A stretch of DNA of 64,000 bases from Prorocentrum cordatum. Taxonomy: Eukaryota. Under the pieces are notes generated by a model. It did not search any database and was not told the origin of the DNA. It worked only from the letters and a program-made list of their open reading frames with translations. The stretch spans positions 62,001 through 126,000 of the forward strand of contig CAUYUJ010000225.1 of NCBI GenBank assembly GCA_963575745.1, read 5' to 3'. Every line of letters starts with the position of its first letter. Position 1 is the first letter of the stretch. The position numbers and the translations under genes were made by a program. Positions 5,804 through 61,388 of this stretch are shown here, one piece after another.

Positions 5804-6049
5804 GCTGGCTCTGGGACGACGGCGGGAATCTTGTCGCCTCGCAAAATTGGCTCGCAGGAGCGCGCGCCCCTTTGAAGAACAGTTCCTGCAACGCTACTCG
5901 AGCGCAAAGGGGCTAGAAGAGGCAGGAGGAGGACGACAACGAGGAGCAGGAGGAGGAGGAGCAGGGCGGAACGCCCCTGCGTCCCCCTAGGATCACACGT
6001 CTCATCTTGAAGCGGGCCCACATGTGGGCCCTGCTGTATCCCCGCCCCC

Positions 6050-6400
6050 CTTGAAACAAAAACTGAGCAGAGGGATTCTACTGGAAAGCCTCACAATAGG
6101 ATTCCTTTGGGCTAAGCAAAGCAGGGATTCTGTAGGAAAGCCTCACAAAAGGACTCCCCTGGAAAGCGCGACTGAGCGTTCCTATTGGAAAGCATCCCAC
6201 CTGGAATCATGTGGAAAGCACCAAAGAGGGACACGGTTGGAAAGCCTCACATCAAGAATCCTTTTTGGAAAACACTACTGGGGGCTACTATTGGAAAGCG
6301 TCACACAACTAATCCTTCGTAAAACACCCGCACGGGATTATATCGGAAAGCCTCGTAATCGAAATCCTTTGCGGGTGGCTCACGAAGAGATCCCTCGTGA
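6050..6400. repeat. Degenerate minisatellite with GGAAAGC core
   Basis: Recurring ggattc..tggaaagc(ctcac) units. Confidence 0.6.
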
Positions 6401-18300: not shown

Positions 18301-21300
18301 TGGCAATAGAAATCGGCCTTGTTCTGCTCCTTCGCCCACCGGGTCTCGGTCGTCGATCCGCGGGGGCCCTAGCGTCACTCCAGGGCGTGGCCCGGGCGGG
18401 GCGGGCGCGTCCAGGTGCAGGCGCGTGTGTGAATGCCGTCCACCTATCCAGGTGACGCTGCTTGTCTGCTTAGTCGGGTCGTCGGCGGGGCATGGCGAGG
18501 CCGATGTCGGACCCAAGCGCGCCAACGTAGAGTGCGCATGCGGCGCGCTCCTGGAACGCCAGGGCTGACAGGTCGGCGGTAGACGCGGTGCCTTCGATGA
18601 CCGCGAGGGTGGCCTGGAGTGGGAATTTCCTAGCCACGAAGTCCTTTCAGGCCGCGGGGCAGTTCGCACTCTCGGCCCGGGGGTGGCGGCGGGCGACCAT
18701 GACTAAGCGGGATACCGCGGTGATCAGGAGCTCCAGCGCCGAGTGCAGCTGCTTGAAGTGCTTCCACTGTAGTCCGAACGGTGCGCCTAGCTGGTCGCGA
18801 GCAGTCTGGTCGCGCGGGCGGTGCGGCTCGCACAAGCCAAGGATGGCCTCGATCACGTCTCCAATGCCCTCGGCGCCCCCGGACGGATACAGGCAGGTGC
18901 GCGATTCGCGTTGCATGGGCAGGGACAAGGCGAGGAGGATCCTGGCCTGGATGGCGCCCAGAGTCGCGCCGGTGCTGTCCAGGAGGCCGTTGAGAACTGT
19001 GGCCTGGCGCCCCTTCGGGCCCATGTCGCAGAAGGCTTGAAATACTGGCGGTGTGGGTGGCTCCTTGTGTCCTTGTGCCTTCGGCACTTGCAGGTGGATG
19101 GCTGCCAGCATTTGGGTCTGCGCCTGGGGGCGTCTGCGGGGATGCAGGCTTCCTTAACGTGCCACGCTGTCGGCATATTCGGTCGGTCCCTTCGGGGCGG
19201 GATCAGGCTGGGGCCGACTGCGCGTGCGTTGTCGTCGTCCGCGACTCCGAGTCCTATAGCCCACATGATGGTCGCGAAGACCGCCGCGTAGACCAAGTTG
19301 CCGGCGTCCAGTCCTACAAGTGCAGAGCAGAAAAAGAGGTACCCGTTCATGCTCCATCCTTCCCGTCCTGTAGGCCGGGGTCTGTTGGCTGATCCGAAAC
19401 GCCGTGCCGGTGCGGATGCAGCCCGAGGCACCATAGTAGGCAGGGTCCGAATGCTGGGCAGCCTGGTAGTCTCGCCGCTGCAGCGTTGACGTCGTCCTCC
19501 AGGTCCTTCCAGTTTTGGTCGGCAGGGAGCGGTAGGTCGGCGCGCGCCGAGAATCCAGCCTGTTGAGCCTGACGGGCCTCGATCACTTCCTTCTCCTTTC
19601 GTCTGCGTTCGGCTTCCGCCAACGGCCGGGCCTTCTCCTCTGGGTTGGCGGTCTCGGGGATGTCCTCCTCTAAAACCTTTGAGTCAGCCGTGGACTGGCG
19701 CGGGGATCCGCCCCGGTTGATGTGGAATTCGAAAGCGAGGTCTGCCTTCTGGGCCCAGGTGCTCAGGTGATGGAATGCAGCGTCTGTGGCCGTGCGGAAC
19801 ATCCTTGCGCCCGCGGTCATGATAAGGTTGCATTGTTGGCGCGTCAGCCCCACGTCGACGCGGTGCTGGTCGTCCACGTGGCCCCAATTAAGGATGGAGT
19901 TGGCCCGGGTGGTCATTCGGATGACGACGGAGGCCTCTTGCCCCTGGGCGGCGTCGATGGCGGCGACGCGGATCGCCTCGCTTTCCAGGAGGTCTGGAAA
20001 CAGGTTTGCGATGCCACTGAAGCGTTCGCTCAGGCCGTTTGCCGCCGTGGCGCGATTGATCTACGTCCCTCCTGTGGGCCCCTGCCCCGCCCCCGTTGGC
20101 GCAGGGGGCCGGGGCCGCCCGTGTTCGTCTCGGATCCTTCCCCTTGCGCCGCCCGCGAGCAGCGTCTGATGTCGTGGGCCGTGCAGTGGTTGCCTGCCAG
20201 CGCGGGGGTCAGCTGGAGCTTGTACGCCGACAGTGCGAGGATGGTGCTGTTGGTCCTTCTTACCCATGGTACGAGGGCCTTCACAAGGGCAACCACTGCG
20301 CGCGCTTCGTGGGTGTTGGCGCAGCCGCCCTAGATCGTGGACTGAACCTCTTGCGAGGGGATGTGAGCAAGTATGGAGCGATGCCGATCGTAGACGGCGC
20401 CGCCGATTCCCTTCGGGGCCATGCACGCTGCGTTGCTCTGGAATCCGCCTGCGGCGTCGATCAGGGAGTCGTCGGGCTCGTAGTTGCCGTCCTCGTTCCT
20501 TGCTGCTTCGTCTTCTTGGTCGGTCAACGGTCGTGCGAGTGGCCACCCCAGTCCTTCGGCGCATGGTCGCTGTAGCGTGGGGTCCAGGATGGCGGAAACC
20601 AGCCTGCCCCTGTGGAACGTGAGCGAAGGCCATGCGAGCAGGGGCGGATGGATCCGATAGCACCCCTCCAGAGTGACGCTGCACTCGGGGATGTTCCCTA
20701 TGGCTGCCACGTACTTGGCGAGAATGGACATTCCTAGCCCCCAGCGCAGTGCCTGCTGGGATTTGACCGTCGGGCACAGCTGCCGCTCGTCGCCGAAGAG
20801 GACCGTTCTGGCACCGCATCTGACAGCGTGGTTCAAGGACATGATGGCCATGGGCTCGGACGTTTGTCCTGCCTCGTCGAGGAGACATCTGGGGAACTTC
20901 TTGTCCCAGAGGTCGGCCCCCGCCTCGCGCGTGGCCAAACTAAATTTTGCCTCTGTCGCGACTCCCTCTCGGAACTTGCGGAACCAGCTCGCGTGCCCCG
21001 TGGTGACCTCGCCCTCCGATATGGCGTGCACATAGGCGTACTTGGCGGCGGGGGTGGTCGTGCCACGCTGCCCTTGACCTTGTCCTCATGTGCGAGTCGC
21101 GCGGCCATGCGCGGGAACGGGTCTTTGTTGGCTGGGTTCAGGTTCTTTCCAATTTGCTCTGCTGCCAGGTTGTCCATGGATCCGCCGGTGCCGCCAAAAC
21201 ACCCCACGCCCCGCCCTGGGGCGAGGCGCGACATGTAGGCGTCCGCCACGCAGGCCGCGACCTTGGTCTTCCCGGTTCCGGGAGGCCCGTGGCACAAGGG

Positions 21301-22300
21301 AAGGAGAGAGTTCTGGGTCGCAAGCACGCAGCGTCGTTGGGCGTCGCTGGCGCGGTGCAGGTTACAGATGTGCTCCAGGTGTTCCTCCTTAGGAGCCGGC
21401 AACAGTCGTTGTAAGACGCTCCCCGGGAAATCCTCCGCCTGCTGAGCCGTCAGTGCGGGTGTGCCCGTGCGCGGGTTGGCGCTGGGTTGGTCGGGGTCGT
21501 CGATAGCGCGCTCCAGTGTTACCGAGGCCTGCGCCAGCAAGAGATCTGCCGCTTCGCCCTGAGCCGGCGCGGCCCGGGCCCCGGCCTTGCCGTCGCAGTC
21601 CTCGCGCCGAAAAACGAACGCCCAAACGATGGGCGGGAGGGCAGTGCCCCAGAGGGCCGCCCTATCGCACCCGACTGAAAATAATTCCCGTATCGCCGCG
21701 TTGACCCTGTTGAATTGGGCCTTCCTCGGGGTGCGATCGACCGTGTAGTATTGTTGGCCCGGGCTTGGCGTTGGAACTGTGCCGTCGTTGTCGTGAAAGG
21801 GTCCGTTCCTCCTGGCGTTGTAGTGGGCCAGCGCGATTCCCGCGGGGCAGCTCCGGTCTGCGCCCGAGACCCCGGCGCCGGGGGCGGGAGGCCAGACGCG
21901 GGTCATCTCTGCCAAGAAACCCACCGTTGGCGAGGACTTGGAGATTAGGAAGGGGTTCGGGGTGCCTGCCGTCACGTCGCGCTCTGTCCACTCCATGGCC
22001 CACTTCGTGTCCCAAACCAGCAGGTAGTACTCGCTTTGGCCCTGTTGTTGTCCTTTGAGCCGCTCTTGCCGGTGGTGCCTACTCAGGATCTCCTGGCACT
22101 GCTCGTTCGGCTGGAAACAAGTGAGGATCTGCACGTTCTTGCTAGCGATGACTTGCCAGGACGTGGTGGAGCCGTCGTTGGGCGGCTCCACGTCCGCGTG
22201 GAACTCGGTGAAGAAGACCCTCCTTAGCAGCTAAAGAGCTCGGGCAAGGAGCTAAAGTTTAGTTCCTCGCCGTGTAGTTGCAGCCGTCGAGCCCAGTCGG
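15400..22300 (-). pseudogene. Large intronless decayed ORF (~2300 codons): Upf1/DNA2-like SF1 helicase, RNase III-like motif, CxxC region, RS/low-complexity tail
   Basis: Protein-like frames tile the interval through stops and frameshifts (20833-22191, 20330-21031, 20030-20296, 19347-19916, 18647-19111, manual 18360-17820, 16116-17819, 15402-15722). Confidence 0.7.
19800..21350 (-). pseudogene. Upf1-like (SF1B) helicase domain
   Basis: ASDAQ (Q motif), HGPPGTGKT (21265-21290), LLDEAGQ (~20864-20884), FGDERQLCP, CYRIHP, LSAYKLQ, SIDAAQGQEA (~19935-19960), RVDVGLTR. In-frame stop at 20330 and two frameshifts. Confidence 0.92.
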
Positions 22301-23820: not shown

Positions 23821-23879
<59 letters not shown>

Positions 23880-23980
23880 TGTGGGGGGGGGGGGGGGGGG
23901 GGGGGGGGGCTCATGGAAAAGCTGGGGAGGAGGAGGAGGAGGAGGGGGGGGAGGAGGAGGAGGAGGAGGATCGAGGCGGA

Positions 23981-26900
23981 TGATGCCCGCGGGGTAAGGC
24001 AACTGCGCCGATCCACAAGTACTCCCGCGCGCGCCCCCGCGCGCGCCCTCGCCTCGGCGCGGTCGCGCGCCCGAGGCCGTCAGGCAGGCCTCGGCCTCAC
24101 CTCGTGCAGCCCTCAGCAGCCTCGCCACCTTGGCGGCCATGCCTGGCGAGCAGCTTCTCTCCCGCGCGCGGCGCCTCGGCCTCGGCCGCGCGCCGCCGCC
24201 GCCCGCAGCCCCTGCTTCGCTTCGAGCAGCAAGGCCACCTGCAAGCGGCTGGGGCCCCTCCGGCATCCTGGCCTCCTCGGCCGCACTTCCGCCTCCCACG
24301 GCCCCTGCTTCGCATCGAGCAGCAGAGCCACCTGCAGGCGGCTGGTGCACCTCCTGCGCCCTGGCAACCTTGGCCTCACGCTGCCGCGGCGGCGCCGCGC
24401 TGCACGCGCGCCTGCTGCGCCTCTGGGGCGCGCCCCCTGCCTTGCCGCCCTCGGGCGGCTCTCCTCTCGTGGTCTCCAGCAGCGCGTCCACGTCGACTTC
24501 CTCCGCGCCGCTGGTCTGCACCTTGCTCACTCCTCCTGGATCACCTGCTTCGACCATCCCCTGCGAGCTGCCTCCTTCATCATGTGCAGGCAGGTATGCA
24601 GCCGTAGCCTCCTGCACACCCGCGCCCGCTCCTGCCGCCGCGGCGCTGGCCTCCGCTGCCTGGTCTGCCCGTCCGCCAGCCACCTCCGCGTCAAGCAGCT
24701 CCCCGCAGAAGTCGTCGAGGCGCGCGATGACGAATGGGACCACCCTCGCTGTGCGGGGCGCGAGCCCCCGCTGCAGCTTGGCCACCACCGCGCTGCCCGA
24801 CGCGGAAGGCGGCATCTTGCACTCTCCGCTGAAACCGCATACCCTGGCGGCTCCCGCGATCCCGCAGAGGCGGCAGGCGACCAGCGGCATCCTGCGCTCC
24901 AGCTGCTCATCCACGGTGGGGCGGATGACCACCAGGTCGTGGGCGGTGAGCCCCTGCTGCCTCAGCCTCCTGTTGGCCTTCGCCGCGTCCGCCACGATGG
25001 AGCCTGGGCACTCGCCCACTCTCTCCTCCGACCTGCAGACTTCGCACCACCTGGGCTGCCCAGGCAGCCCGCGCCAGGTGCAAGCCACCTGCGCTGCTGC
25101 TGTGCGCCTCTCAGGAAGAGCCCGCTGCTGCTTCACCTTGCCGTGCGTGGTGTCGCTGCCGTCAACCCAGGTGCCCACAGCCGAACACCACAAGGCGACC
25201 CTGTCCACGAGGCCTCGGCTTTGCGCAAGGCGCAGGCGCTCCTGGCCAGGCAGGCGCCCAGCATCGGCTGCCGCCTTGGCCGCGCGGTCGGCCAATCGAT
25301 TGCCGTGCCAGTCACGGTGCGACACCTTCCCAGCCGCCACTTGCTGCCTCGCGCTGTGGCTGGGCATCCACCTCAGTTGCACCTCGCCGCCCAGCCCTCC
25401 ACGTTCATCCAGCAGCGCCCAGGCCTGCCTCCACAGGTGCGCCCAAGAATGATCACTGGCCGTCGTACGCGCGCGCCCCGCCTGGTAGGAGCCGTCGAAC
25501 ACGTACTTCGAGTCCACAACCAGCACAGTGTCACCGTGCCCGTACCTCTGGGCCATGATCACTGCCGTGAGCTCGCTGCCGTTGATGTCGACGTACGGGC
25601 CAACCACCTGTCCAGCGACCGACGCCCTGTACACATCCTCACCCTGCATCAGCGCGACGGCACTCCAGCCCGCCGCCGTGAACTCACCGTAGTCCGCCTC
25701 GAACACCGAGCCGTCCAGGAAGAGCTCCCCAGCTGGCAGAACGCCCTCCTCATGTTCGCCCTTCCAGCATACCAGGTCGCTGGCCTGAGGCTTGCGCACC
25801 CCCCCCGGCACTGGCCACAGGCACCTCCCCAGCAGCAACTGGATCCCAGGCTGCTGCCATCTCCTCCTGAGGTCTTCGAGGTCTGGGGGAAGGGCCAGCA
25901 CCTCTCGCAAGCTAGCACAGTCACAATGCCTGTGCACCAGGGTGCCCTCCAAACCGCACCTTAGACACCCCGCGCAGTTGGCCAGCCCTTTCTCCGCCTT
26001 CCGTGCCTGCGTCCACTGCCCGTTGACGATCAGGGACCGCAAGTACGCCATCTCGCGCTGCGTGAGCCGCGCCTTGACTTTGCCAGCCCCTCCTCCCTGC
26101 AGCCCCTCGGGGTGGAGCACTCTCCCTGTGGTGGTCAGCCTCACCAGCGGCTCGAGCTCCCCGCCTGCTGCCAGGTGGCTGCACCCTGGGTGCTTGCTGA
26201 CTTGCCTCCACTGCCACCTCAGCACCGCTCGCATGACCAGCTTACGCACGACCCACGGCGCTACGTCGAAAGGCGCGATGGTGTTGCCGTCGTCCATGAC
26301 CCAGCCGTTGGCTTCTTGCACCTCCCACCCGATTCTCCGCAGCGACATCACCGTCGCAGCGCATGGCCCCTGCACGTGAGCCCAGGTGGTTGCCCTTTTG
26401 TCCTGCAGACCGCGGACAACCATGTGGAAGGGGCACCCAGTTCTCCCACACCGCCCGCAGCAGCATCATCACGGGCATGCAGGTCGCGTCGATGTTCGGG
26501 TCGAGCCCAGGCTGAAGCATCAGCCCCAGCGACCTGCTCTTGCTGGCCGTGGTGTTGGAGACCGCCACGAACGACATAGTCCTGGCGCGGTCCAGCTCAC
26601 CCATCGCGCACCCCGTGATGGCCGTGCCGTAGCCGATGCTAGGGTGCAGCCCCGTCTTCACAACCCTCTTAGCTGCGATCCTCTTGGCCTTCACCACCTT
26701 CAGCACCTTGAACTTCCTCAGCCTTTGCCCCGCCTGCTGGTAGCGGCCCTCGCGCACCGCGCGCCCTAGCCTCTTGCCCCCGCTGAAGTCACCCCCCAGG
26801 TTATGCTCCTGCCGCACCGCCAGCACCCCCAGCGGCTTGCGCAGCCTCTTCTCCAGCTCCTGCCTCGCCTCAGGGAAGTTGGCGAGGGCTCTGGACTTCT

Positions 26901-29326
26901 TGACCGCGACCGCCAGGTCCACCTCGCTGAGCAAGACCTTGAAGTGCCCTGGCCGCTGCCGTGATGTCCCCGACGACGCGCTGCATGCCCCCAACCCTCC
27001 TGATGATGATGTCATCTACGACCACCGAGAGGGCCACCGTGGGCACCAACGCCTGCAGCCTGTCCAGCGGCTCCAGCAGCAACATCTTGAGCATGAGCGT
27101 TGCCAAGCAATCTCCTGGCAGCACAGCCTGCTCCGTGTAGATGGCGTCGCTGACCGCTTCGTCGCGCGCCAGCCACCTGGCACCTGGCCGACCTGTACAG
27201 ACTGACCTGGAGCTTGAGCTGCCACAAGGGGAACCCCGTCTTCGTCGCTGCACGAATGAGGTGCCCGTGCTGCACCTGCTCGAACGCCTTGAGCAAGTCC
27301 AGGAGCACCAGCGCGGCGACCCAGCTGGAGGCGTCGCCAGTCTCACGCCCTTTGGCCGTGGCCCACTCGCACTTCACCGCCTGCTGCCAGACCGCCCTCT
27401 GGCAGCCCTTCCCTCTGGACGCCCAGAAGAAAGGCCGATCGTTCCTGCTCTTCCACTCGACTGCCGCTGGCCTGCGCCGCCTCGTCTGGATCCTCGCGAG
27501 CACGTGGGCGATGGCCACCGGCCTCACTCCTCCTAGCCTCTTGGCCAGGAAGACGATATTGTTGTTCAGCTGCGGCCACTCCGCCGCCATCTCTACGGCC
27601 ATCACGACGTCGATGAGCGTCTCGAGGCCCTCGTCACTCAGCTCCAGGAACTGCCGCGGCTTGACTGCCTCGAAACCCGCCGCGGTGCCCTTCCTGAACG
27701 AGCGCAGCACCGCCTTCATCTCCTCCACTGTCCGCCTGCCAGGCCTCACACCCAGATCGCCTGGCCATGCCGGCTCCTCATGGGCGCACTGCACCCTCCA
27801 AAGCTTGCCCCATTATTGCTCGAGGGCGTCCAGCTCCTGGCAGAGGCTGTGGGGGCCTGCCGCGGAGCTGCAGTCGCTGCCTTGCCAGCCGACAGCCACT
27901 CTCGTGACTGCATGCTGCCCTCCCGCTCCTCCCTTCAGCTGCTTGTCGACCCATTCGTCGAACTGCCTGCCGCGCTCGTCGGTGTCACGCCTGGCGAGCT
28001 GACTGGCGCGCACCTTGGCCAGCCTGGCCAGGGTCAATAGGGCCACGGGGTCCCAGCTCGCAAGCCCTGCATGCTGCAGCACCCTCAGCCACCTGCCCGC
28101 CTCTGTGCTGTCATGCTTGCCTCCCAGCTCACTCTCGGCCTGCTCTTGCCACAGCCTGACCCTCTGAGGCGCCAGCTCCGCCAACCTGGGCAGGAAGCCG
28201 AGCGCATCAATCCGACCTCGGGGCGCTTGTGCCCTCGCCGCAGCCTCCAACGTGTTTGCCACCCTGGCCATCCACGCTGCTTCAGGCGTGTGCCTCGGCG
28301 CCCGCGGCTCCTGGATCCCGCTGCGTTGCACCCTCTTGGTGGAGAAGCCCTGCGCCCTGCCCGCGTACCTGTCCCTCTGGTCCTCCAGCTGGTACACGTC
28401 CAGCCACTCCTCCTCAGCGCACTCCAGGAAGGTGGCGAAGGCAGCGGTGGGCGCGTCCTTGGCGCGAGTGCCCTCGCACTCCAACTCGCCTGCACCGCCG
28501 CCTCTCCTCCAGCACCTCCTCGCGCCTCCACGGGAGGCGGGCGGCCTGTCTTCCCCAGAGGCTGGGGGGCCTCGCGCATGCTCCTTCAGCCGCTTCAACC
28601 TGAAATGGACTACCCGCGATTACATACGGTGCCTGGCTCGGATGCATGCTGCCAGTCCCAGCATGGGGAGCAGCTCCTGGGCATCCTTCATGCCCCCGCT
28701 GCTCCGCCACCTCCTCCTCCTCCTCGGGACGGCGGCACCGTGCTGGATGCACCGTGCTGGATGCCAGTCGGCACCGTGCTGGATGCAGCACTTGCTTAGG
28801 TTGCGTCCAGAGGCTGCTGCGGCCAGCGTGGGCGGGGGCGGCAGCGCGCTACCGAGGGGGCCCCACCTTGCCCTCTGGCCCTCCAGTGGTTTTCCGAGGA
28901 TGCGATTGGCTATGGCAGCGCCTCGGGGCCACCGCCTTCCCTCCGCACGCTGCTGCTGGCCAGAGTCACCAGTCCAGTCCTCCTCCTGTGGTATTTCGAG
29001 GATGCCGTTGGCAGCGCCTCGGGGCCGCCACCTTCCCACTTCGCTTGGCCTCCAGCTGGCGGCGGCGCCGCCCTCCCGCGGCCTTGTCTGCTGGCTCACC
29101 GCGACGACCAGCGCGTGTGCCACTGCTGAGTGCCTCGCGCCTTTCTCAGCCTCATGTGGTTTTTGTTCGAGGATGCCCTTGGCAGCGCCTCGGGGCCACC
29201 ACCTTCCCTCTTCTGGTGGTCGCCCATCAGCCTCGGCGCCACCCATCTGCGGCCTCGCCTTCTGGCCTTCGGCTCCGACCAGCCCGCGCTCTGCCTCTTC
29301 GCGGCCAGCGCCTGCCTCCCCCTCGA

Positions 29327-29369
<43 letters not shown>

Positions 29370-30406
29370 TTTATTCTTTTTCCGAGGATGCCCTCGGCAG
29401 CGCCGCGGGGCCACCACCTTCCCTCTGCGCGCTCCTCCATGCGCGCCACCTCTGCCTCTTGTTTTTTTTTTTTTTTTTCGAGGATGCCCTCGGCAGCGCC
29501 TCGGGGCCACCGCCTTCCCTTCGCACTCCTGCGGTCCTCAGCCTCGTCGCCCTCCTCTAGCGCCCTCGGCTCACCAGCAGCTGCTGCCAGGCCTACTGTT
29601 AGCTGCTCCCTCACGCGCTTCCTCGCCCGCACCCAGCTTCTGCGGTGATCCCTTGCACAGCATCCGTGCGGCCTTGCCTCAGGAAGCGCCCGAGGCCTCT
29701 GCACCACCCCCATGGCGCCCTCCATCTTCTGCTTGGCGACTTCGGCGATGACTGGCGCGTGCGGTTACACAGGCGAACCCGCCACCACCTGAGCTCCCTG
29801 CGCGAGCAGCCCGCGCGACACAAGGAAGTAGTCGATGATCCGCCCTGACGCCATGCAGGTGGGCCCCGCGGGTCTGACCACGGACGCGTCGAAGAGCGCC
29901 AGCACGCCGCCTGCCTGCAGCTCGTCATCACTGAGATTCCAATCCCCGCCGATCACGTACTCTCTGCGGCAATGCCTGAGCCTCCTCGCCAACAATTTGA
30001 GGCTCGACATGTTGCTGAGGTTGAGGCCCTCCCCCGCCTCCAGGTACAGGTTGGCAATCAGAAAGCCGCCGCCACAGATGCCCGAGACCCAGTGCACGTG
30101 TACTCTGCCGTCCACCAACACCGCCGCCTGGTGGTCCTGGACCTCCGCCATCCCGTGGCAACGTCACACCATGGTGATGGGCCCCCCAGTGCTGAGCCCA
30201 CCTGACTCAGACCTCAACGCTGGCGAACTCCTTGCCCGCCATCCTTGACCACGGAGTTGAGCCTCAGCATCTCCGCTCCTCCCCTCTAGCAGCCTGGTCT
30301 CCTGCACCAGGATGGCGTCGCAGCTCTGCACCTCCTTCACCATCAAGCACTTGCCCAGGCTGCTGAACGCGTTGACATTGACCGTGCAGATCCTCCAGAC
30401 GCCCAT
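23981..30406 (-). pseudogene. LINE C ORF2 (EN-RT-RNase H), frameshifted
   Basis: Fragments 30164-30466, 29765-30151, 27813-28598, 27012-27794, 26242-27015, 23772-26423. Confidence 0.92.
28840..29519 (-). repeat. Array of a ~41-nt hairpin repeat with variable spacers inside LINE C
   Basis: CGAGGATGCCCTCGGCAGCGCCTCGGGGCCACCGCCTTCCC variants start at 29479, 29383, 29168, 28997 and 28895, with a remnant near 28840. Confidence 0.9.
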
Positions 30407-30413
30407 CCCATCG

Positions 30414-31556
30414 CTAGGACTCTGAGTCCTTCTCCTCCTCCCCCGTGCGCATCTTCTTGGCATCATTTATGAGCGCCTCAGCCGCCTTCCTCTTGCCAGG
30501 GTCCACGAACTGCTCCTCCAGCTCCTTCCAAGCCTGCTGCACCTCAGGGGATGGCTGCAGCGGCCGAGGCTCCGCCTCAGCAGCCGACCTTGCCACAGCC
30601 CCAGCCCTCGCGGGTGCAGCAGCGCCAGCTCCCGCAGGAGGCGGCTGCACAGGATCTGGCACCGCAGCACCCTCTCCTGCCGCCTTGCTCTTCCACTCGA
30701 ACAGCTTCTCGACCGCCTCAGGCAGCTTGACGAACCCCCCGCAGAACACTGGGTTGGCCGCCACCCCGCTGGACTTGGCCCAGCCCGCGAGCGTCGCCAT
30801 GACCTCCTGCAGGGAGGCAGGGGTGGCGGACGCTGCCGTCGCCACCTCGGCTGCCACGGCGGTCCCCGCCAACCTGGCACTCTGAGCTGCCAGCGCCTCG
30901 CGCGCTCTGGCGGCTGCCTCGGCCAGCTCCTGCCGCAGCTGCTGCAGCTTCTCCGTGAGGTCCGCCGTCTCGTTGATGGCCGCCCTCGCCTTCGCCTTGG
31001 CCAACTCCAGCATGTGCCCAGTCCGCTTGACCTTCTGCGCCTTCTCGTCAGCCAGCAGCTGGGCGGCTTTGACGGCCTTATCCTTGGACAGGTCGTCACC
31101 CAGCCCTTCGCGCACCAGCCGCCTGGCCTGCTGGAGCTCGCTCCTGATCTTCGCACTGAACAGCTTGGTCGCGATGGCGAACTGCCCATCTGACATGCTG
31201 ACGAGCTCACGACGCTCATCGTCGTTGAGCACCACTCCCGCAGCACGCTGACCTCCTTCACCGCACTCATCGCCTCGCCACCGCGGCGCACGGGTCGCAG
31301 GCGCGCCAGCCCCAGCACGTCCACCACGCCCGCCACCGCCAGCGCCAGCAGGAGCACCGCCACGACCTTGAGCCCCTTGCGGCAGGAAGCTGCCCAGGAC
31401 CCTCTGCGACGGCTTGCCTCCACCCTGGCACGCGTGGCGACAGCGCACTCGCTCGGCGAAGTTGTAGTAGCTGCGCTCCTGGCACACCCATCCCAGGGGC
31501 CCGCCTGAGCGACCTCCCCCGCGCCCTTGCCCCGCGCCGCGCCCCATCGCGCGCAA
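30414..31556 (-). CDS. LINE C ORF1 (RGG-rich N-terminus, degenerate RanBP2-type zinc finger, coiled coil)
   Basis: 380-aa open frame with WVCQERSYYNFAERVRCRHAC. Its stop lies 8 nt before the ORF2 ATG (30406). Confidence 0.8.
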   Translation of the reverse strand: MRAMGRGAGQGRGGGRSGGPLGWVCQERSYYNFAERVRCRHACQGGGKPSQRVLGSFLPQGAQGRGGAPAGAGGGGRGGRAGAGAPATRAPRWRGDECGEGGQRAAGVVLNDDERRELVSMSDGQFAIATKLFSAKIRSELQQARRLVREGLGDDLSKDKAVKAAQLLADEKAQKVKRTGHMLELAKAKARAAINETADLTEKLQQLRQELAEAAARAREALAAQSARLAGTAVAAEVATAASATPASLQEVMATLAGWAKSSGVAANPVFCGGFVKLPEAVEKLFEWKSKAAGEGAAVPDPVQPPPAGAGAAAPARAGAVARSAAEAEPRPLQPSPEVQQAWKELEEQFVDPGKRKAAEALINDAKKMRTGEEEKDSES

Positions 31557-31651
31557 GACACTGGAGGAGACGCGCCCGACTGCCAGAGCGCAAAGACTCT
31601 TGCCTGCCGCGGACTAGCGGCATCCGTTCGACCCCCTCGGGAACCTGGCAC

Positions 31652-31673
31652 CTTGAGCCAAAATGGCTGCGGA
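31652..31673 (-). other. Genomic copy of the dinoflagellate spliced leader (DinoSL)
   Basis: Minus strand reads TCCGCAGCCATTTTGGCTCAAG against the consensus DCCGTAGCCATTTTGGCTCAAG, one mismatch. Confidence 0.96.
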
Positions 31674-31937
31674 GGAGGATCGAGGCGGAGGAGGACGACG
31701 ACGACGACGAGCAAGCGATAAGTGAAGGCTTTGTGATATTTGTGGTTTGGGGGTGCTGGAGGGGGGGGGGGGGGGGCGACCTTTTTTTTTTTTTTTTTTA
31801 TTTTTTTTTTTTTTTTAAATATGTGTATATGTATGTATGTATGTATGTCTGTATGTCTGTCTGCCTGTATGTATGTACGTACGTGTGTGTACATATATGT
31901 GTGTATATTCGTGTGTATGTCTAGATGTATATATATA

Positions 31938-34900
31938 CAAGATGTTAAGGCTCGCTGCGCTTCGCCTTCTAATCTTGACCCTTGCACCCACGATGTTTCT
32001 GGGCGCGGGCGAGAACCTTTTTGTTCAATGAGGTGCGTGGGAAATGCGCGAGCGGAGGCGAGGCGAAGCGAGTGCGCGGTAACGCCCGGGCTCATCGGAG
32101 AGATGATGTGTCGACGGGGCTGTGCCGTCGCCGGCGCTTGCAACCCAGGTAGCGTAGTCGACGTCGCGGTGTGGTCGGTGGTTCACCTGCAAAGCGTAAG
32201 TAGTGAAAAGCTCCCATGTAGCAGATGTCCGAACACTGTCGTTGACGATAGAGTCCCGCGTGCCTCCTTTCACAACAGGAGGAATCTGGCGGAAATCCCC
32301 ATAGCAGACGAAAGCCTTGTTCTTCCAGATGGTAGTGTGGTGCTGTTGAATGTGGCCCAATAGTTTGAGGGCGCTCTCCCACGCAGGTCGTTTAGCATTT
32401 GGCCATTCATCCCATTGGAGCACAGACGCCGCGGCGAGGGCACCGGCACCTTTGGAGCTCATCGGCAGAGAGCAAGTGAGGACGTCCTCGTCAGGCACCG
32501 GAGTCTTGCAGAAAGAGTGCGCCGTGGCGCCGAATGGGAATTGCAGGGCCGCGACTCCTTTTGGCCATGTTGACGACTCCCTGTCCACTCCCCAAAGCAG
32601 CGTGAGTGATGGAACTGGTGACGGTGGATTTGCCTCTGCCAGCGGGGCCGTGGGCGAAAAAATACTTTTCGGCCCCGGCGCGGATGGGCGCGATTATCGA
32701 TTTGACGGCGTCGGTCTGACTCGGATCCTTTGAAAGGTATTGTAGATGGTCTTCGCGCGGGATTGCGCTTCTTGCGGGGGAAATGGCGCCGCAGAGGTGT
32801 CTGGTGCTGGGGATGGTTGAGACCGTGCAGGTTTGTCTTCTTCCAGCGTGAACGATTTGCCAGTGCACCGGCACGAGAGGCGCAAAGCGTCGCACGCAGC
32901 TTTGCGGGCGTAATCGAGAGTGAGCCCGCGATCGCGGAAATCACCGAGGAGATGCTTCTCGAACTTGTTGCACAGCGTCACGGCGCGCGCGTCCTGCTCG
33001 AGCAACGCGACGAAGGCGAACCGTAGTTGAGCGGCAGTGTATCGAAGCTCGTCTAACTCCTGGAGCACCCGCGCGGGTTCGTCAGCTGTCGCAAAATACC
33101 CGGTCGCCACAAGGGCTTGCTCATAAGTGGGGTACCTCCGGCCGGCGTGGGTTTTGCAGTCGGCGAAGCTTGGTTTTGGGTAGTTCAACAGTATGTGTCT
33201 GAGGTAAAACACCAGAACACCTCTCTCTGTTCGGGGCACTTCATTTCCTGCCTGCATATAGGATGTTCGCCCCGTTGCTTCTCGTAGACGAAGTGGGTCC
33301 GACCTGGGGGGGCAGCGTCGAGCACGGGCGCCAGGGCCCCGTCCGGCGGGGGGGTCGCCGAAGGCGCCGCAGCCCGTGGGAAGAGGTCGGGAAAGTGGTG
33401 CTGCAAGGCTTGCGGGCAAGATTTGGCCACCATGAAGCGCTCGAAATATTCGCAGTACTTCGTGGAGAGGTGCGGCTCGAACTTGGGCCGGTGGAATTAG
33501 CGTTGCAAAAACGAAATAGACGATTGTACGGCGTCCTCTTCTTGTCCGGCGGCATAGGTGATCCAATCTTCGTCATCGCAATGCACTGGTGGACAAACCA
33601 CATGAGGGATGCGTTCATACATAGTGTAGCCAAACATGCGCCACGCGCATTCCGTGGCACAAATATAACGGCCACGCTGCTATTATTTGATCTCGTCTTT
33701 GTTGCCAGTGTCCTCCTGGAGCTCATACTTGACAAAGTCTGGTCCTTTGAACGGGGACTTGTAAAGGTATTGGAACAGGTTGACGGACCCTGCGAATTTG
33801 ACATTGGCGTGTCCGTCTCACAGCAGGAGGATGGTGGGGTTGTATTTCACGATCAGCCGGTTGCAGCAGGCAGATCGTTTGCCGTAAGATGCGGTCCCAG
33901 ACGCGCAATTGGGGCAGTCACCGCCACAATGTCTGCGGCGGTGATGTGGATACCCTCGCTCGTCAAAGTACGCGTCGTCTTGGAATGGCCACGGGCGCCA
34001 TTTGATGCACTCCTGAGATGGGTCGTCGGTGCGGCACGAATGGTTGCACGAGTGTATCATGTGTTGAAGGACGAGTGCGCGGACAGGACCGTCTGGTGGA
34101 AGTTCGCATGAGACGAAGGTGTCCACGGCTTCGGGCGTAGTTGGCGGCGTTGTCAGGGCTATGGCAACGTGAGAACGGGGCAGCCCTCTGCGCTGATATT
34201 CAATACCCTGATGACGCACCTGCGGTCTCCACAGAACTCACGCTTGAGGTGCGCCATCGTCTTCTCCAATCGAGCGCGGAATACGCGGACCACGATGTCT
34301 GGGCGGTCTGCTGCTGTCTGGCCCGGATGCAGAGTGGCAGTGGTCTCGGGCCAGTATGGGTTGCACGTCAACGTGATGAAGAAGGTTGGCGGGCCTTTTC
34401 GCCGAGCAAGCCCCAGGGAGTCCATTCGGAGCTTGCGTAGGTGGCGGGGGGACCCGGGCACGCTCGAAAACAAATATGCACTCGTGCCAGGGAGGGGCGC
34501 GTCATTGGCGAGGGCCTCGCACATGTCTTCTCGTTTGGAAGTTCGTTGAGCCTGTGCTCTGCGAAGAAGTCCGAGCCTCTCATCCTCCATCATGCAGTGC
34601 ATGTTCACGAGCCACTCGTTCACGAGCCGCCCACGTAAATTCATGCGCGGGCTTCGTAGGAGGTGTTAACGGTGCCACCACATCTGTGTGAGGCGCTGCC
34701 CCGCGTTCGCGAGCATGTCGGCGCTCCGTCCGCGGCCGCCGCGGGGAAACCAGAGCGGGTAACTCAAGGGCTCGTAGAGCGCGCTCAGCGGGTTCATGTA
34801 TTGCGGCGTGGGACACGAGTTCCTTCGGAATACGACAGACCGGGGCGACGCGTCCACGCGGGGTGTTTCATGGACAATCGCAGCGAGCTCGTCGATGCCA

Positions 34901-46269: not shown

Positions 46270-49200
46270 CTAGATGGGGTCGGGGTAGATGGGGGTGGAG
46301 GATCGCGCCGTATCGCCGATACATCGCCGATGTCTCGGCGATGCATCGGCGATGCACCGGCGACGTCGGCGATGCATTGGCGTCGTCGGCGTGGGGAAAC
46401 ACGGGCTCCACATCGAGCCGCATCGGCGATGCATCGGCGATGCAGCGCGATCCTCCGACCCCATTTGCTCCGACCTGGCCCAAATCTTTTTAGTCCCGAA
46501 CGTCTCGCCCGGACGGATGCGGATGGAACTGCTCGCCCTCGCCGCGCTGCCGGCGCGGCCCGCGCCGCCCCGGCTCGGCGACGTCGCCGCCGCGCGCGGC
46601 GTGGCGGAGGGCGCGGCGTGGCCCGGCGAGAGGTGGCCCCGGGCCGCCGGGCCGCTCTGCACCGACGGGGCGGGCCTCCTGGCGCCGCCCTTGGCCTGCA
46701 GCGAGGTGACGGAGCCGCCGCCGCGCGAGGCGACGGAGGCGCCGCCGCGCGGGCTGCCCAGGCTGCCGCGGGACGAGGCGGAGAGCGCCCGGCCGCTCCT
46801 CGCGGGCTCCTGCGGGCTGCGCGGCGACAGCAGCCGCACGGAGGCCGCGGTCAGCGACGCAGGCGCCCTCGGCGAGGCGGCGCCGCGCGGCGAGGAGGCG
46901 CCGAAGGGCGCGCGCGCCGCGGCGGGCGCCGCCAGCCGCGAGGGCCCGCCGCGCCCCGCCTCGGGGAGCGCCGCGAAGGAGCGCCGCGCGGGCGCGCCGC
47001 GCGGGGAGCCCGGCCCCACCGCCGCGGGCGCGCCGGCCGCGCGCAGGGCCTCGAGCTCGAGCGCCTGCGCGGACAGCCGCTCGCGGGCCCGCGCCAGCTC
47101 CTCCCGCAGCGCCGCCGCCTCCGCCTCGGCCCGCGCCGCCTGCGCGGCGGCCTGCCGCACCCGCCGCGCGGGCCCCGGCTCGCCGGCCTCCTGGGGGCCC
47201 TCCACGGTCGGGATCTGCAGCTCCAGGCTCCACGGGTCGGGGTCGCCGGGCTCCCCCCACGGCGCCGGCCGGGCGTCCACCTCCCGGCGCAGGTCGCGGA
47301 GCGCCTCCAGGCGCGCGCGGAACTCCGCCTCCGACCACACGGCGCAGAGGGCGTTGGAGCCGGAGTCTGGTTGGGCCCACTGCGGCCCCGCGCGGGTCAC
47401 GTCGTCGGGCAGCTCGGTGCGCCGCAGCACCACGGCCAGCTCGTTCTCCTTGTCGGACCCGGTGATGTCGTAGAGGACGCGGACCTCAAAAGCCATCTCG
47501 AAGTCCTTGTCGTCGCGCATCTCCTCTGTCGTCTCGTTGGCCTCGTCCGTCAGTCTCTTCAGGTCCTGCAGGCGCCGCAGCACCCCCGCCGCCCTCTCGG
47601 CGCCGATGCGGTCCTGCAGGTGGGAGACGTACTCCTTGGCCATCAGGCTCTGCGTGCTGTTCTCGACCGTGATTTGGTCGACGATGGACATGACCTTCTC
47701 CCTGTGGGGATTCCGTGCCTCTGGGATCACCACCTGGAAGCAGTGCGCAAGCCCCACGCGCAGCCTGTCCCCATCCTCGAGGCGAGCTTGCCCCACCACG
47801 CGTCCCATGTTCACCGAGACCTCGGCCAGCGATCTCGTCCCCGCCTCCGAGCGCCGGTTCGGCATGCTCATCGTCTTAGGCAGCTCCCCTCCTGGTGCGA
47901 CTCCGCCTTGGCCGATCGGACGGAGGGAGCCAGCAGTAGGCAACAAGGGGGACTGCGACGGCTGCTGGCTGGAGCGGTGCACCTCCAGCGTGCAATTGTC
48001 GACGCAACGCACGGAGCAGGTCTCGGGTTGGGTGCCCATGCCGTCTATGCAGATGTCGCAGGCAGGGTCGCTTCCGATCAGCAGCACCTTGCCAGGTGTC
48101 AGCCAGTACCGCATCCTGCCTGACAGCAGCGGGTCGTCGCAAACGGTGACGAGGTAGGGGCTCGCTGCGGCCGGACCACCTTCTTTGGATGCGGCGGATA
48201 AGCAGCTGCCCTCCACGTTCACGAGCTCCGACGTGGAGGCCAGCGAGACGTCCGTGCCTTCCCCTGGGGGCCAGCCGCTGATCTTCGCGAGGGTCATGCG
48301 CCGCTGCCGGTTCGCCTCCACGGCCAGCCGCCGCTCTGCGTCCCAGGAGCGCGTGAACTCCTGCTGGATGCCCTGGGTGGCCTGGATCTGATCCTGGATG
48401 TCTCTGCCCACGTCCGATGAGGCTGCCGTCGACTGGAGCTGCTGCTTCAGTGTCTCGATCTCAGCCTGCAACATGCGGATGAGGTCTGCCTCGAACTCCT
48501 CGTTCTGCACCGGCTTGGTGTGCAGCTTCTTGACGGATTCTGCGAAGCGGATCGTCGACTCCGTCATCTCTAGGCAATCGGCGCTGGGGGAGATGCAAGC
48601 CAACATGGCCGTCCTGCAATTGCCCATCAACGACCCAGACAACAAGAAGGTGAGCTTGCTGTTGCGGTAGGGGATGTGCGTATCGCTTTTCGCTCCCTTG
48701 TGCTCCCGCGCTGCCAAGCACGAGATCATGTGGCTCAGGGCAGCCAGGCTCTTGTTGATCTGCTGGCTCTCCTTCTGCCTCTGCTCGTTGTTGCCGAGCT
48801 GCTTCATCCTCTCGGAGCCCGCCAGGTCCACGGCGTGCAGGTGGGCCCGCCGAAGAGCCGCCTGGGCAGTGCCGACCACCTTCCTCTCCACGTGCAGCGT
48901 GACCACCGCGTGGGACCGCGACGAGACCGCGTTCATGTTCGTGCAGCCCACCACGCGGATCTTGTGCCCAAAGTCCAGGAGCTGCGACACGTCCGCCGCG
49001 CTCTGCACGGTGCTCTTGGTGAGCCCCTCGATGAACACGCCGAACCGGGGATGCTCCCGGATCTCCAGCGAGGCGGGCTCTCGGAGGCCCCGGCCCTGCG
49101 AGGGCGCGGCCTGGAGCAGGTCGCGGACCTTCTCGTTGTACAGCTCCAGGTACGAGAGCCGCACCATGTGCTCGTCCTGCGTCTCGCGGGCCAGCTGCAA

Positions 49201-61288: not shown

Positions 61289-61388
61289 NNNNNNNNNNNN
61301 NNNNNNNNNNNNNNNNNNNNNNNNNNNNNNNNNNNNNNNNNNNNNNNNNNNNNNNNNNNNNNNNNNNNNNNNNNNNNNNNNNNNNNNN
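61289..61388. other. Scaffold gap (100 N)
   Basis: N run. Confidence 1.

What the first reader, a model, noticed from the sequence alone, without database searches (positions are those of the whole stretch)
23962..31689. Full-length LINE inserted as a spliced-leader trans-spliced RNA
Seen: the element's 5' terminus is a complete 22-nt DinoSL (one mismatch). It directly abuts a 16-19 bp duplication that also marks the 3' end 7.7 kb away, and ORF1 starts ~95-130 nt downstream. Known: DinoSL is added to mRNAs by trans-splicing, and relic leaders mark dinoflagellate retrogenes. Inference: the retrotransposition template was itself trans-spliced and copied to its very end. The element may therefore obtain its 5' end and cap from host trans-splicing rather than from an internal promoter or ribozyme. 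The retained leader ends in AG, which could act as the acceptor in the next cycle.
Basis: partly seen in the sequence, partly recalled or inferred. Interest (0 to 1): 0.88.

Follow-up and report, generated by a model that had tools for sequence, protein, structure and literature searches.

The report
LINE retrotransposon starting with host spliced leader
A 7.7-kb jumping gene in a dinoflagellate genome begins with the 22-letter leader that the host splices onto its messenger RNAs, which shows it was copied back into DNA from a fully processed, leader-capped RNA.

Summary
On the minus strand, a non-LTR retrotransposon (23981-31673) carries ORF1, an AP-endonuclease, a reverse transcriptase and RNase H. 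It lies between two perfect 19-bp direct repeats (23962-23980 and 31671-31689). Its first 22 nt match the dinoflagellate spliced leader (DinoSL) at 21 of 22 positions. This is the only SL-like site in the 64 kb. The copy is dead: it has three in-frame stops, and its RT motifs are spread over three reading frames.

No other copy of this family could be retrieved. An exact-SL scan of other public contigs did find two unrelated LINEs that also start with the SL. L015 is intact (ORF1 plus a 2536-aa ORF2) and L018 has ORF1 followed by the endonuclease. A DIRS-like element (L010) has the SL joined exactly at an AG acceptor. The three LINE 5' ends share nothing alignable except the SL.

The best reading (confidence about 0.8) is that LINE RNA is SL trans-spliced and is reverse-transcribed to its 5' end. 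Two further ideas remain untested: that the element depends on trans-splicing instead of a promoter, and that the SL's terminal AG is reused as an acceptor. I rate this a new variant of a known kind (dinoflagellate "mRNA recycling" extended to autonomous LINEs). Six literature searches found no explicit report.

The parts
23981..31673 (-). Whole LINE insertion (7693 bp), from the first SL base to the last base before the 3' TSD copy
   Evidence: Bounded by perfect 19-bp direct repeats. Minus-strand ORF1, APE, RT and RNase H. No LTR.
31671..31689 (.). Target-site duplication, copy at the element's 5' side; its last 3 nt (31671-31673) double as SL bases 1-3
23962..23980 (.). Target-site duplication, copy at the element's 3' side, at the edge of a (GGA)15 microsatellite (23926-23970)
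31652..31673 (-). DinoSL, 21 of 22 positions (T5>C), forming the element's 5' terminus
   Evidence: (1 match, 0 of 100 shuffles); consensus quoted in PMC7245778.
31548..31651 (-). 5' UTR of 104 nt; no Rfam family, no unusually stable fold
   Evidence: Not alignable to the UTRs of L015 or L018.
30414..31547 (-). ORF1 (377 aa plus stop); no Pfam family and no database relative; by eye, a degenerate RanBP2-type zinc-finger-like motif near the N-terminus
   Evidence: One search shows only a non-significant local match to the zinc finger of L015 ORF1.
29765..30466 (-). Start of ORF2 with the AP-endonuclease domain; in-frame stop at 30164-30166
   Evidence: Pfam Exo_endo_phos E=0.0057, below cut-off. 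tblastn to the APE region of L015 ORF2, E=5.8e-6, and to the window's second LINE, E=4.8e-11.
28886..29520 (.). Internal array of 5 copies of a ~57-nt motif plus (TA)17, between APE and RT; probably copy-specific filler
   Evidence: Lower summed depth of related contigs here in run X1.
26217..28028 (-). Reverse-transcriptase region, broken: in-frame stop at 27813-27815 and motifs spread over three reading frames
   Evidence: Pfam RVT_1 E=0.017, below cut-off. tblastn to the window's second LINE, E=2e-16. Frames. At 27815, 9 of 9 related contigs in X1 read a sense codon.
25266..25724 (-). RNase H domain
   Evidence: Pfam PF00075, E=7.5e-7, 29.8 bits, above cut-off. 51% identity to P0001. 32% identity to the RNase H region of L015.
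23981..25265 (-). C-terminal and 3' region with a 93-nt x2 tandem repeat (24189-24374); the element ends ...GGGCATCA without poly(A)

Best explanation
This is a dead copy of an autonomous non-LTR (LINE) retrotransposon with ORF1, AP-endonuclease, RT and RNase H. The RNA it was copied from had received the host's 22-nt spliced leader by SL trans-splicing, as ordinary dinoflagellate mRNAs do.

Target-primed reverse transcription started at a nick beside a (GGA)n tract and ran to the capped 5' end of that RNA. The leader therefore became the first 22 bp of the new DNA copy. The 5' junction was closed with 3 nt of microhomology (TCC), giving a 16-19-bp target-site duplication. The copy later decayed through stops and frameshifts.

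Shown: the anatomy, the SL inside the TSD, and the recurrence of SL-first retroelements elsewhere.

Inferred: that trans-splicing, rather than another route, put the SL on the RNA, and that this is the family's normal life cycle.

The element is co-oriented with all recognisable neighbouring genes, on the minus strand. This fits, but does not prove, transcription by read-through with the 5' end set by trans-splicing.
For: 1. The SL matches at 21 of 22 positions at the exact 5' terminus, flush with (and overlapping by 3 nt) a perfect 19-bp repeat that recurs immediately after the 3' end 7.7 kb away.

2. The body has LINE domains: RNase H above the Pfam cut-off; APE and RT by weak Pfam hits plus homology to other LINEs.

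3. The arrangement recurs independently. An exact-SL scan of prokaryote-MAG contigs gave 20 stretches. Twelve of these loci are not SL-RNA genes and have >=600 nt downstream, and 3 of the 12 carry retroelement domains right after the SL.
   - L015: (AG)n, then the SL (21 of 21), a 93-nt UTR, ORF1 of 406 aa with a RanBP2 zinc finger, an uninterrupted 2536-aa ORF2 with APE, RVT_1 and RNase_H, then ...TAAAAA and (AG)n.
   - L018: the SL, a 97-nt UTR, ORF1 of 286 aa, then ORF2 starting with APE.
   - L010: an RT element with A-coding-B-A-B repeats.

4. The three LINE 5' ends share nothing alignable but the SL, and the one region where their proteins could be matched is about 32% identical (RNase H). 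The SL is therefore renewed from the host pool rather than inherited as ordinary sequence.

5. In L010 the bases that follow the SL are preceded by ...AATGCAG in the uninterrupted repeat copy. That places the SL exactly at a 3' splice acceptor.

6. True SL-RNA genes in the same scan have the SL followed by GTAC... (4 of 4 loci: L008, L009, L014, L020). PMC12584245 quotes a conserved GTACACATTGGG. The window has GTGCCAGGTTCC, matching 4 of 12.

7. No ribozyme family and no unusually stable fold were found at the 5' end.

8. Context: kinesin, a PIF1-like ORF, an AAA_11/12 helicase and a second LINE all lie on the minus strand.
Against: - Only this one copy of its family could be examined. I could not see what other full-length copies have upstream of the UTR.
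- No RNA data were available.
- The SL has one substitution and the copy is dead. It therefore cannot show in which generation the SL was added, or whether an SL-bearing copy can be re-expressed.
- The SL is followed by GT in the window and in L018 (2 of 3 LINEs). GT is also how the SL-RNA intron begins.
- The supporting loci were found by searching for the SL, so they say nothing about what fraction of LINE copies carry it.
- Those loci sit in bins labelled as bacteria. Their dinoflagellate origin is my inference from the SL, base composition and gene content.
- The window's second LINE (about 2-6000, minus strand) has no significant SL trace. Its 5' end is not defined.
Confidence: 0.8

Rival explanations
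1. The SL is an inherited piece of the family's 5' UTR. It was captured once by a master copy and then transcribed as ordinary DNA from an upstream or internal promoter. It was not added afresh to the RNA that made this copy.
For: The SL here carries a substitution, as a decaying inherited relic would. No RNA data and no sister copies were available to date the addition.
Against: L015 and L018 have a perfect 21 of 21 SL, although their UTRs and proteins are unalignable or only about 30% identical to the window's. A neutral inherited segment would have diverged as the UTRs did. None of the 3 LINEs has the truncated tandem relic that re-splicing of an encoded SL usually leaves (relic pattern described in PMC12014239 and PMC7245778).
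Confidence: 0.1
2. This is a 5' chimera. At the end of reverse transcription the LINE RT jumped from the 5' end of an unspliced LINE RNA onto an SL RNA, or onto the 5' end of another SL-capped mRNA. U6-L1 chimeras form this way in mammals (recalled, not from a call).
For: GT directly follows the SL in the window and in L018. SL-gene introns start with GU or GC (PMC6616646). A CUUUG-like motif lies about 55 nt downstream of the SL.
Against: After the GT there is no similarity to the conserved intron start GTACACATTGGG (4 of 12). L015's SL is followed by TCGTAC. The distance from the SL to the ORF1 ATG is similar in all three LINEs (104, 93 and 97 nt), which fits a fixed acceptor rather than random jumps. 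In L010 the junction sits exactly at an AG acceptor.
Confidence: 0.06
3. A site-specific LINE inserted into an SL-RNA gene, as SLACS/CZAR/CRE do in trypanosomatids or NeSL-1 does in nematodes (recalled). The SL would then be target DNA, not part of the element.
For: An SL abuts the element.
Against: The SL lies inside the TSD, not outside it. No intron or second SL-gene part lies on either flank, and the flanks are (GGA)n/(GAC)n tracts. The endonuclease is APE-type. L015's flanks are (AG)n.
Confidence: 0.01
4. A chance match or an assembly chimera, for example cDNA-like sequence joined to a LINE.
For: The window is a scaffold with one 100-N gap (61289-61388). The copy has many frame breaks.
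Against: 0 of 100 shuffles give an SL-like site. The 19-bp repeat brackets SL plus LINE exactly. The N gap is 30 kb away. The same architecture appears in independent assemblies.
Confidence: 0.02

Closest known systems
Dinoflagellate 'mRNA recycling': retrogenes tagged with relic DinoSL (Slamovits & Keeling 2008, as cited in passages of PMC7245778 and PMC12014239; Song et al. 2017, PMC5585692)
   Same: An SL-capped RNA is reverse-transcribed and integrated, so the leader becomes genomic DNA at the 5' end of the copy. Song et al. report the GO term 'RNA-dependent DNA replication' enriched among DinoSL-tagged genes. That is probably the same phenomenon seen in bulk.
   Different: Here the copied RNA is the autonomous LINE itself, flanked by a clean TSD. 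The passages I read treat RT genes as 'activated' drivers, not as elements whose own 5' end is the SL. The 3 LINEs examined have a single complete SL and no truncated tandem relic.
SymbioLINE elements of Symbiodinium (de Mendoza et al. 2018, PMC5890265; passages read)
   Same: Exo_endo_phos, RVT_1 and RNase_H domains, TSDs, conserved UTRs and no poly(A) tail.
   Different: ORF1 here has no DNMT domain. The passages found for 'spliced leader', 'trans-splic' and 'dinoSL' do not link the SL to the element. Supplementary figures were not opened. No phylogenetic placement was done here.
L1Tc/ingi of trypanosomatids: Pr77 internal promoter plus HDV-like ribozyme (PMC1874656, PMC3185411, PMC3383444; abstract starts in the search listing only)
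   Same: A LINE living in a genome with polycistronic transcription and SL trans-splicing must define its own 5' end.
   Different: According to those abstracts, L1Tc makes unspliced transcripts from an internal promoter and trims them with a ribozyme. Here the 5' end is the SL itself, and no ribozyme was detected.
SL-gene-specific LINEs (SLACS, CZAR, CRE, NeSL-1; recalled, not read)
   Same: Physical association of a LINE with SL sequence.
   Different: Those elements insert into SL-RNA genes with a restriction-like endonuclease. Here the SL lies inside the TSD, the endonuclease is APE-type and the target is a microsatellite.
Genome-encoded SL exons merged to transposable elements in Schistosoma mansoni (PMC5832876; passages read)
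   Same: [quoted passage not shown]
   Different: Different phylum and leader. It was reported as 6 cases, with assembly chimerism not excluded and no TSD or terminal-position analysis in the passages read.
Dinoflagellate +ssRNA virus carrying DinoSL at its 5' end (Levin et al. 2017, as discussed in PMC9651163)
   Same: A selfish genetic element bearing the host leader at its 5' end. L087 in my scan has the SL followed by an RdRP_1 ORF.
   Different: That is an RNA virus or EVE, not a TPRT-integrated LINE.

Membership tests
Non-LTR (LINE) retrotransposon, APE type with RNase H | Reverse transcriptase domain | tested here: inconclusive
   Pfam RVT_1 gives only E=0.017 (15.3 bits, cut-off 29.6) on one frame fragment. 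The same stretch matches the RT region of the window's second LINE at E=2e-16. That LINE in turn matches the ORF2s of L015 and L154 beside their RVT_1 domains. The domain is broken over three frames.
Non-LTR (LINE) retrotransposon, APE type with RNase H | AP-endonuclease (Exo_endo_phos) domain N-terminal to the RT | tested here: met
   Pfam E=0.0057, below cut-off. tblastn to the APE region of L015 ORF2, E=5.8e-6, and to the second LINE's APE, E=4.8e-11. There is one in-frame stop.
Non-LTR (LINE) retrotransposon, APE type with RNase H | RNase H domain C-terminal to the RT | tested here: met
   PF00075, E=7.5e-7, 29.8 bits, above the 25.8 cut-off.
Non-LTR (LINE) retrotransposon, APE type with RNase H | Target-site duplication and no terminal repeats | tested here: met
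   A perfect 19-bp direct repeat at both ends. No other long direct repeat brackets the element.
DinoSL (dinoflagellate spliced leader exon) | 22-nt sequence DCCGTAGCCATTTTGGCTCAAG | tested here: met
   21 of 22 positions, unique in the window, 0 of 100 shuffles. Consensus from PMC7245778.
DinoSL (dinoflagellate spliced leader exon) | Added to the RNA by trans-splicing, i.e. present on transcripts but not in the parental DNA | not testable with these tools
   No RNA run was listed and no parental copy was available.
SL-RNA gene (donor gene) | SL exon followed by the conserved intron start (GTAC...) | tested here: not met
   The window has GTGCCAGGTTCC. The 4 of 4 SL-gene loci and the sequence quoted in PMC12584245 have GTAC(A/C/G)..., so 4 of 12 positions agree.
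SL-gene-specific LINEs (SLACS/CZAR/NeSL-like) | Insertion inside an SL-RNA gene, with SL-gene parts outside the TSD | tested here: not met
   The SL is inside the TSD, and the flanks are microsatellite-like with no SL-gene remnant.
Ribozyme-processed LINE 5' ends (HDV-like, as in L1Tc/R2) | HDV-like ribozyme at the 5' end | tested here: not met
   An Rfam E-value scan of 30900-32000 found no ribozyme family. The fold of the 5' 134 nt is no more stable than shuffles, z=+1.7.
Processed retrogene with relic DinoSL | Copy of a host gene that does not encode its own RT or EN | tested here: not met
   The insert encodes APE, RT and RNase H.

The most novel reading that the evidence does not exclude
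Dinoflagellate LINEs, and at least one DIRS-like element, may have no promoter of their own. In this reading they are transcribed by read-through inside unidirectional gene arrays. The host's SL trans-splicing cuts out and caps their mRNA. The leader is then copied into every full-length daughter. There its terminal AG serves as acceptor, so exactly one leader is regenerated each cycle, and/or its TTTT motif serves as a portable promoter box.

The 5' end of the element would then be defined by the host's RNA processing rather than by element-encoded signals. This would be a third solution to the LINE 5'-end problem, beside internal promoters and ribozymes.
Probability: 0.3. Interest if true: 0.8.

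Novelty: new variant of a known kind. Interest (0 to 1): 0.6.

Why it matters
LINEs lose any upstream promoter each time they copy themselves. How each lineage re-creates a capped, translatable 5' end is a central question in retrotransposon biology. The known answers are internal promoters, and ribozymes acting after co-transcription.

A LINE whose full-length copies begin with the host's trans-spliced leader, inside the target-site duplication, points to a different answer: the host's mRNA maturation machinery supplies the 5' end.

It also ties the machinery thought to drive dinoflagellate 'mRNA recycling' (20% or more of genes carry leader relics according to PMC11453091 and PMC5585692) to the same RNA pathway as its cargo.

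Finally, it gives a practical marker. SL plus TSD identifies complete LINE 5' ends in genomes where repeat annotation is poor.

Tried and rejected
- No whole genome is held for the window, so sister copies could not be collected.
- blastn of the element against the rest of the window found no second copy. tblastn found only a distant LINE at about 2-6000 on the minus strand.
- That second LINE has an SL-like stretch upstream of its ORF1. It scores 18-21, within the range of shuffled windows (maxima 22-29), so I rejected it as a relic.
- Sequencing runs: no RNA holder was listed, and only one small-share DNA holder (X1) was found.
- Laying X1-X3 showed many related contigs: 1150 in X1, of which 67 are >=99% alike, 320 are 95-99%, 447 are 90-95% and 316 are below 90%. 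The printed tables did not resolve what precedes the UTR in those copies, and no contig bridged an empty site.
- The metagenome scan for the SL-UTR junction (a 20-mer) gave 2 hits. Both are chance matches in unrelated DNA. It used the only metagenome scan.
- The search for related loci in viral contigs with the window's RNase H/C-terminal protein and with L015's APE-RT-RNase H region gave pattern hits, but none was confirmed.
- ORF1 has no relative in the 5.8-billion-protein search within the length band searched. The RNase H part has one relative, P0001.
- Searches of the MAGs behind L015 and L018 for further copies found only the loci themselves.
- RT-family searches in 10 MAGs gave LINE-like ORF2 fragments without 5' ends (L154, L155 and others).
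- ORF1 of the window versus ORF1 of L015 showed no significant similarity (E=6).
- Earlier-findings look-ups for this genome, this sequence and 'DinoSL LINE' returned nothing.
- Literature: six full-text searches and passages of 12 papers gave no statement that dinoflagellate LINEs start with DinoSL. Supplements were not opened, and subscription journals are not in the library.

Full report
**What is there.**

- Spliced leader. From 31673 down to 31652 the sequence is TCCGCAGCCATTTTGGCTCAAG. The DinoSL consensus quoted in PMC7245778 is DCCGTAGCCATTTTGGCTCAAG (passages), so 21 of 22 positions agree (T5>C).
- Uniqueness. It is the only match to the 21-mer at <=3 mismatches in 64 kb on both strands, and none of 100 shuffles gave a match. 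It is also the only match to the 15-nt relic core at <=2 mismatches.
- Direct repeat. GGAGGAGGATCGAGGCGGA is present perfectly only at 23962-23980 and 31671-31689. The other 7 of the 9 matches at <=3 mismatches all have 3 mismatches and lie in GGA-rich tracts. The expected number is 0.04. The repeat finder lists it as the only repeat that brackets the element and finds no LTR-like repeat.
- TSD length. The right-hand copy overlaps the first three SL bases (TCC), so the duplication is 16-19 bp with 3 nt of junctional microhomology.

**The body.** On the minus strand the order is as follows.

- SL, then a 104-nt UTR.
- ORF1, 31547-30414, 377 aa. It has no Pfam family and no relative in the protein search.
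- ORF2, starting at 30466 with an AP-endonuclease. The Pfam hit is below cut-off. tblastn to the APE of L015 gives E=5.8e-6, and to the window's second LINE E=4.8e-11.
- A filler region with five copies of a ~57-nt motif and (TA)17, at 28886-29520.
- A reverse-transcriptase region. RVT_1 gives E=0.017 on one fragment, and homology to the second LINE gives E=2e-16.
- RNase H: PF00075, E=7.5e-7, above cut-off.
- A 3' end (...GGGCATCA) without poly(A).

The copy is not intact. It has in-frame stops at 30164-66, 28620-22 and 27813-15, a frame change between the APE and the RT, and RT motifs spread over three frames. At 27815, 9 of 9 related contigs in run X1 read a sense codon, so that stop is private to this copy.

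This architecture matches the Symbiodinium LINEs described by de Mendoza et al. (Exo_endo_phos, RVT_1, RNase_H, TSDs, conserved UTRs, no poly(A); passages), but ORF1 here has no DNMT domain.

**Surroundings.** All recognisable genes in the window lie on the minus strand:

- kinesin, 46273-51083
- a PIF1-like ORF, 32028-32693
- an AAA_11/AAA_12 helicase, 19350-22230
- a second, distantly related LINE at about 2-6000

The LINE is therefore co-oriented within a unidirectional array. The insertion site is the edge of a (GGA)15 microsatellite.

**Trying to get sister copies.** No genome is held for the window, and there is no second copy in the window.

One DNA run (X1) holds many related contigs: 1150 were laid at >=80% likeness, 67 of them >=99%. 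The family is therefore multi-copy in a related organism. The printed tables do not show what precedes the UTR in those copies, and both caps are spent.

A metagenome scan for the SL-UTR junction gave only 2 chance hits.

**Independent evidence from elsewhere.** I scanned two collections for the exact leader.

In prokaryote-MAG contigs there were 20 stretches:

- 4 loci are true SL-RNA genes, with the SL followed by GTAC... and a U-rich tract (L008, L009, L014, L020).
- 2 loci have too little downstream sequence to judge (L013, L019).
- 12 loci have >=600 nt downstream. All 12 had at least one ORF scanned against Pfam, and 3 carry retroelement domains directly after the SL. The other 9 gave no retroelement domain.

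The three retroelement loci are:

- L015 (9096 bp, GC 0.70). It reads (AG)n, the SL (21 of 21), a 93-nt UTR, ORF1 of 406 aa with a RanBP2 zinc finger, an uninterrupted 2536-aa ORF2 with Exo_endo_phos, RVT_1 and RNase_H all above cut-off, then ...GGGTAAAAA and (AG)n. This is an intact LINE. Its RNase H region is about 32% identical to the window's.
- L018 (2541 bp, GC 0.43). It reads the SL preceded by A, a 97-nt UTR, ORF1 of 286 aa, then ORF2 starting with Exo_endo_phos and running to the contig end.
- L010. The SL is followed by three ORFs, the last with RVT_1. The repeats are arranged A-coding-B-A-B, as de Mendoza et al. describe for DIRS-like elements.

These contigs sit in bins labelled as bacteria. 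Their dinoflagellate origin is my inference.

**Why this favours trans-splicing.**

1. An alignment of the three LINE 5' ends shows the SL as the only conserved block. The upstream flanks and UTRs do not align. ORF1 of the window and ORF1 of L015 are not significantly similar. A leader that stays perfect while everything around it has diverged must be re-supplied from the host pool, or have been acquired independently.
2. In L010 the 19 nt that follow the SL recur in the uninterrupted internal repeat copy, where they are preceded by ...AATGCAG. The SL is therefore joined exactly at a 3' splice acceptor.
3. The sequence after the window's SL (GTGCCAGGTTCC) agrees at 4 of 12 positions with the conserved SL-RNA intron start GTACACATTGGG quoted in PMC12584245 and seen in the SL genes. 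L015's SL is followed by TCGTAC. That argues against a chimera with unspliced SL RNA. The GT after the SL in 2 of 3 LINEs keeps that rival alive at low odds.
4. The SL-to-ATG distances are alike (104, 93 and 97 nt), as expected for a fixed acceptor.
5. The SL is inside the TSD and the flanks hold no SL-gene remnant. That excludes an SL-gene-targeting element.
6. Rfam finds no ribozyme, and the 5' 134 nt fold no better than shuffles, z=+1.7.

**What is not shown.** Nothing here shows that an SL-bearing copy is re-expressed, that the element lacks a promoter, or that the leader's last AG is reused.

The absence of truncated tandem relics after the SL in 3 of 3 LINEs fits exact replacement at that AG (the usual relic patterns are in PMC12014239 and PMC7245778). 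It fits equally well with masters that carry no SL and whose SL-bearing daughters are dead ends.

The supporting loci were ascertained by the SL, so the fraction of LINE copies that carry it is unknown. The window's second LINE shows no significant SL trace.

**Comparison with what is known.**

- The mechanism is the known dinoflagellate 'mRNA recycling', applied to the LINE's own RNA.
- Song et al. 2017 report 'RNA-dependent DNA replication' enriched among DinoSL-tagged genes (passages). That is likely the same signal seen in bulk, but they read it as activation of the drivers.
- Benites et al. note DinoSL near retrotransposon polyproteins (passages).
- In Schistosoma, six genome-encoded SL exons merged to transposable elements were suggested to be trans-spliced retro-transcribed elements (passages).
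- Trypanosomatid L1Tc solves the same problem with an internal promoter and a ribozyme (abstract starts).
- Six full-text searches found no paper stating that dinoflagellate LINEs begin with DinoSL inside their TSDs. Supplements and subscription journals were not seen.

**Verdict.**

- The core interpretation is supported, at confidence about 0.8.
- The extensions (promoter independence and AG reuse) are open, at about 0.3.
- I rate it a new variant of a known kind, of moderate to high interest.

Noticed in passing
IMG/VR loci L022-L139 (e.g. L040, L044, L072, L086): The exact-SL scan of viral contigs gave 119 stretches, mostly in AT-rich contigs binned as giant-virus MAGs. Among loci with GC <=0.42 there are 122 distinct genomic DinoSL sites. 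In 118 of the 122, the SL is preceded by A and a conserved AT-rich motif. In 82%, an ATG opening an ORF of >=100 aa follows at a median distance of 47 nt (control 8%). The ORFs include DUF4116-repeat, CCCH zinc-finger and ABC proteins. No capsid hallmark was found among the 30 ORFs scanned. This looks like genome-encoded promoter-plus-leader cassettes. Two literature searches found no paper on it.
   Followed up: partly
L010 = G004:C67 about 87449-96122, minus strand: This is an RT element with DIRS-like A-coding-B-A-B repeats (178-nt A and 281-nt B, both 100% identical between copies). Its left A repeat carries an insertion of the SL plus a 19-nt duplication (TTTTGCTTGCAGGCGTGAG). In the intact internal A copy the 19-mer follows ...AATGCAG. 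This suggests that an SL-spliced RNA was copied and then completed on the internal repeat.
   Followed up: partly
window 23926-23970; L015 1-116 and 9006-9075; L003 1-38; L006 1-31; L017 1-34: Genomic SLs at the 5' ends of retrocopies directly abut microsatellites: (GGA)n in the window, (AG)n on both sides of L015, (TG)n in L003, (CAT)n in L006 and (GACA)n in L017. This could be an endonuclease target preference, or an artefact of short contigs breaking at repeats. I did not resolve which.
   Followed up: no
window about 2-6090, minus strand: A second, distantly related LINE lies here, with about 30% aa identity in the APE and RT (APE at 2929-3930, RT around 2048-2440). Its ORF1-like start is near 5803. 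The SL-like stretch upstream of it is not above chance.
   Followed up: partly
window 28886-29520: Inside the LINE, between the APE and the RT, are five copies of a ~57-nt motif spaced 96-215 nt apart, with T-runs and (TA)17. Related contigs in X1 have lower summed depth here. This may be a copy-specific expansion or nested short insertions.
   Followed up: no
window 23821-23909 and 31765-31816: Long homopolymer runs flank the insertion site: T58 then G27 on the left, and G17 then about T35 on the right, followed by a (TATG)n tract.
   Followed up: no
L087 (IMG/VR contig, 5319 bp): The SL at the very end of the contig is followed after 27 nt by a 788-aa ORF with viral RdRP_1. This fits the dinoflagellate +ssRNA virus reported to carry DinoSL (PMC9651163 passages).
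   Followed up: no
window 31556-31564 and L015 about 207-215: The window's UTR and L015's UTR share the 9-mer CCAGTGTCT, about 10-20 nt upstream of the ORF1 ATG. L018 has CGATGTCT at the aligned place. This may be chance.
   Followed up: no
L013 (2789-bp contig): A complete SL is followed by two truncated relics (CCATTTTGGCTCAAG x2). This is the classical multi-round recycling signature. It contrasts with the single SL of the three LINEs.
   Followed up: no
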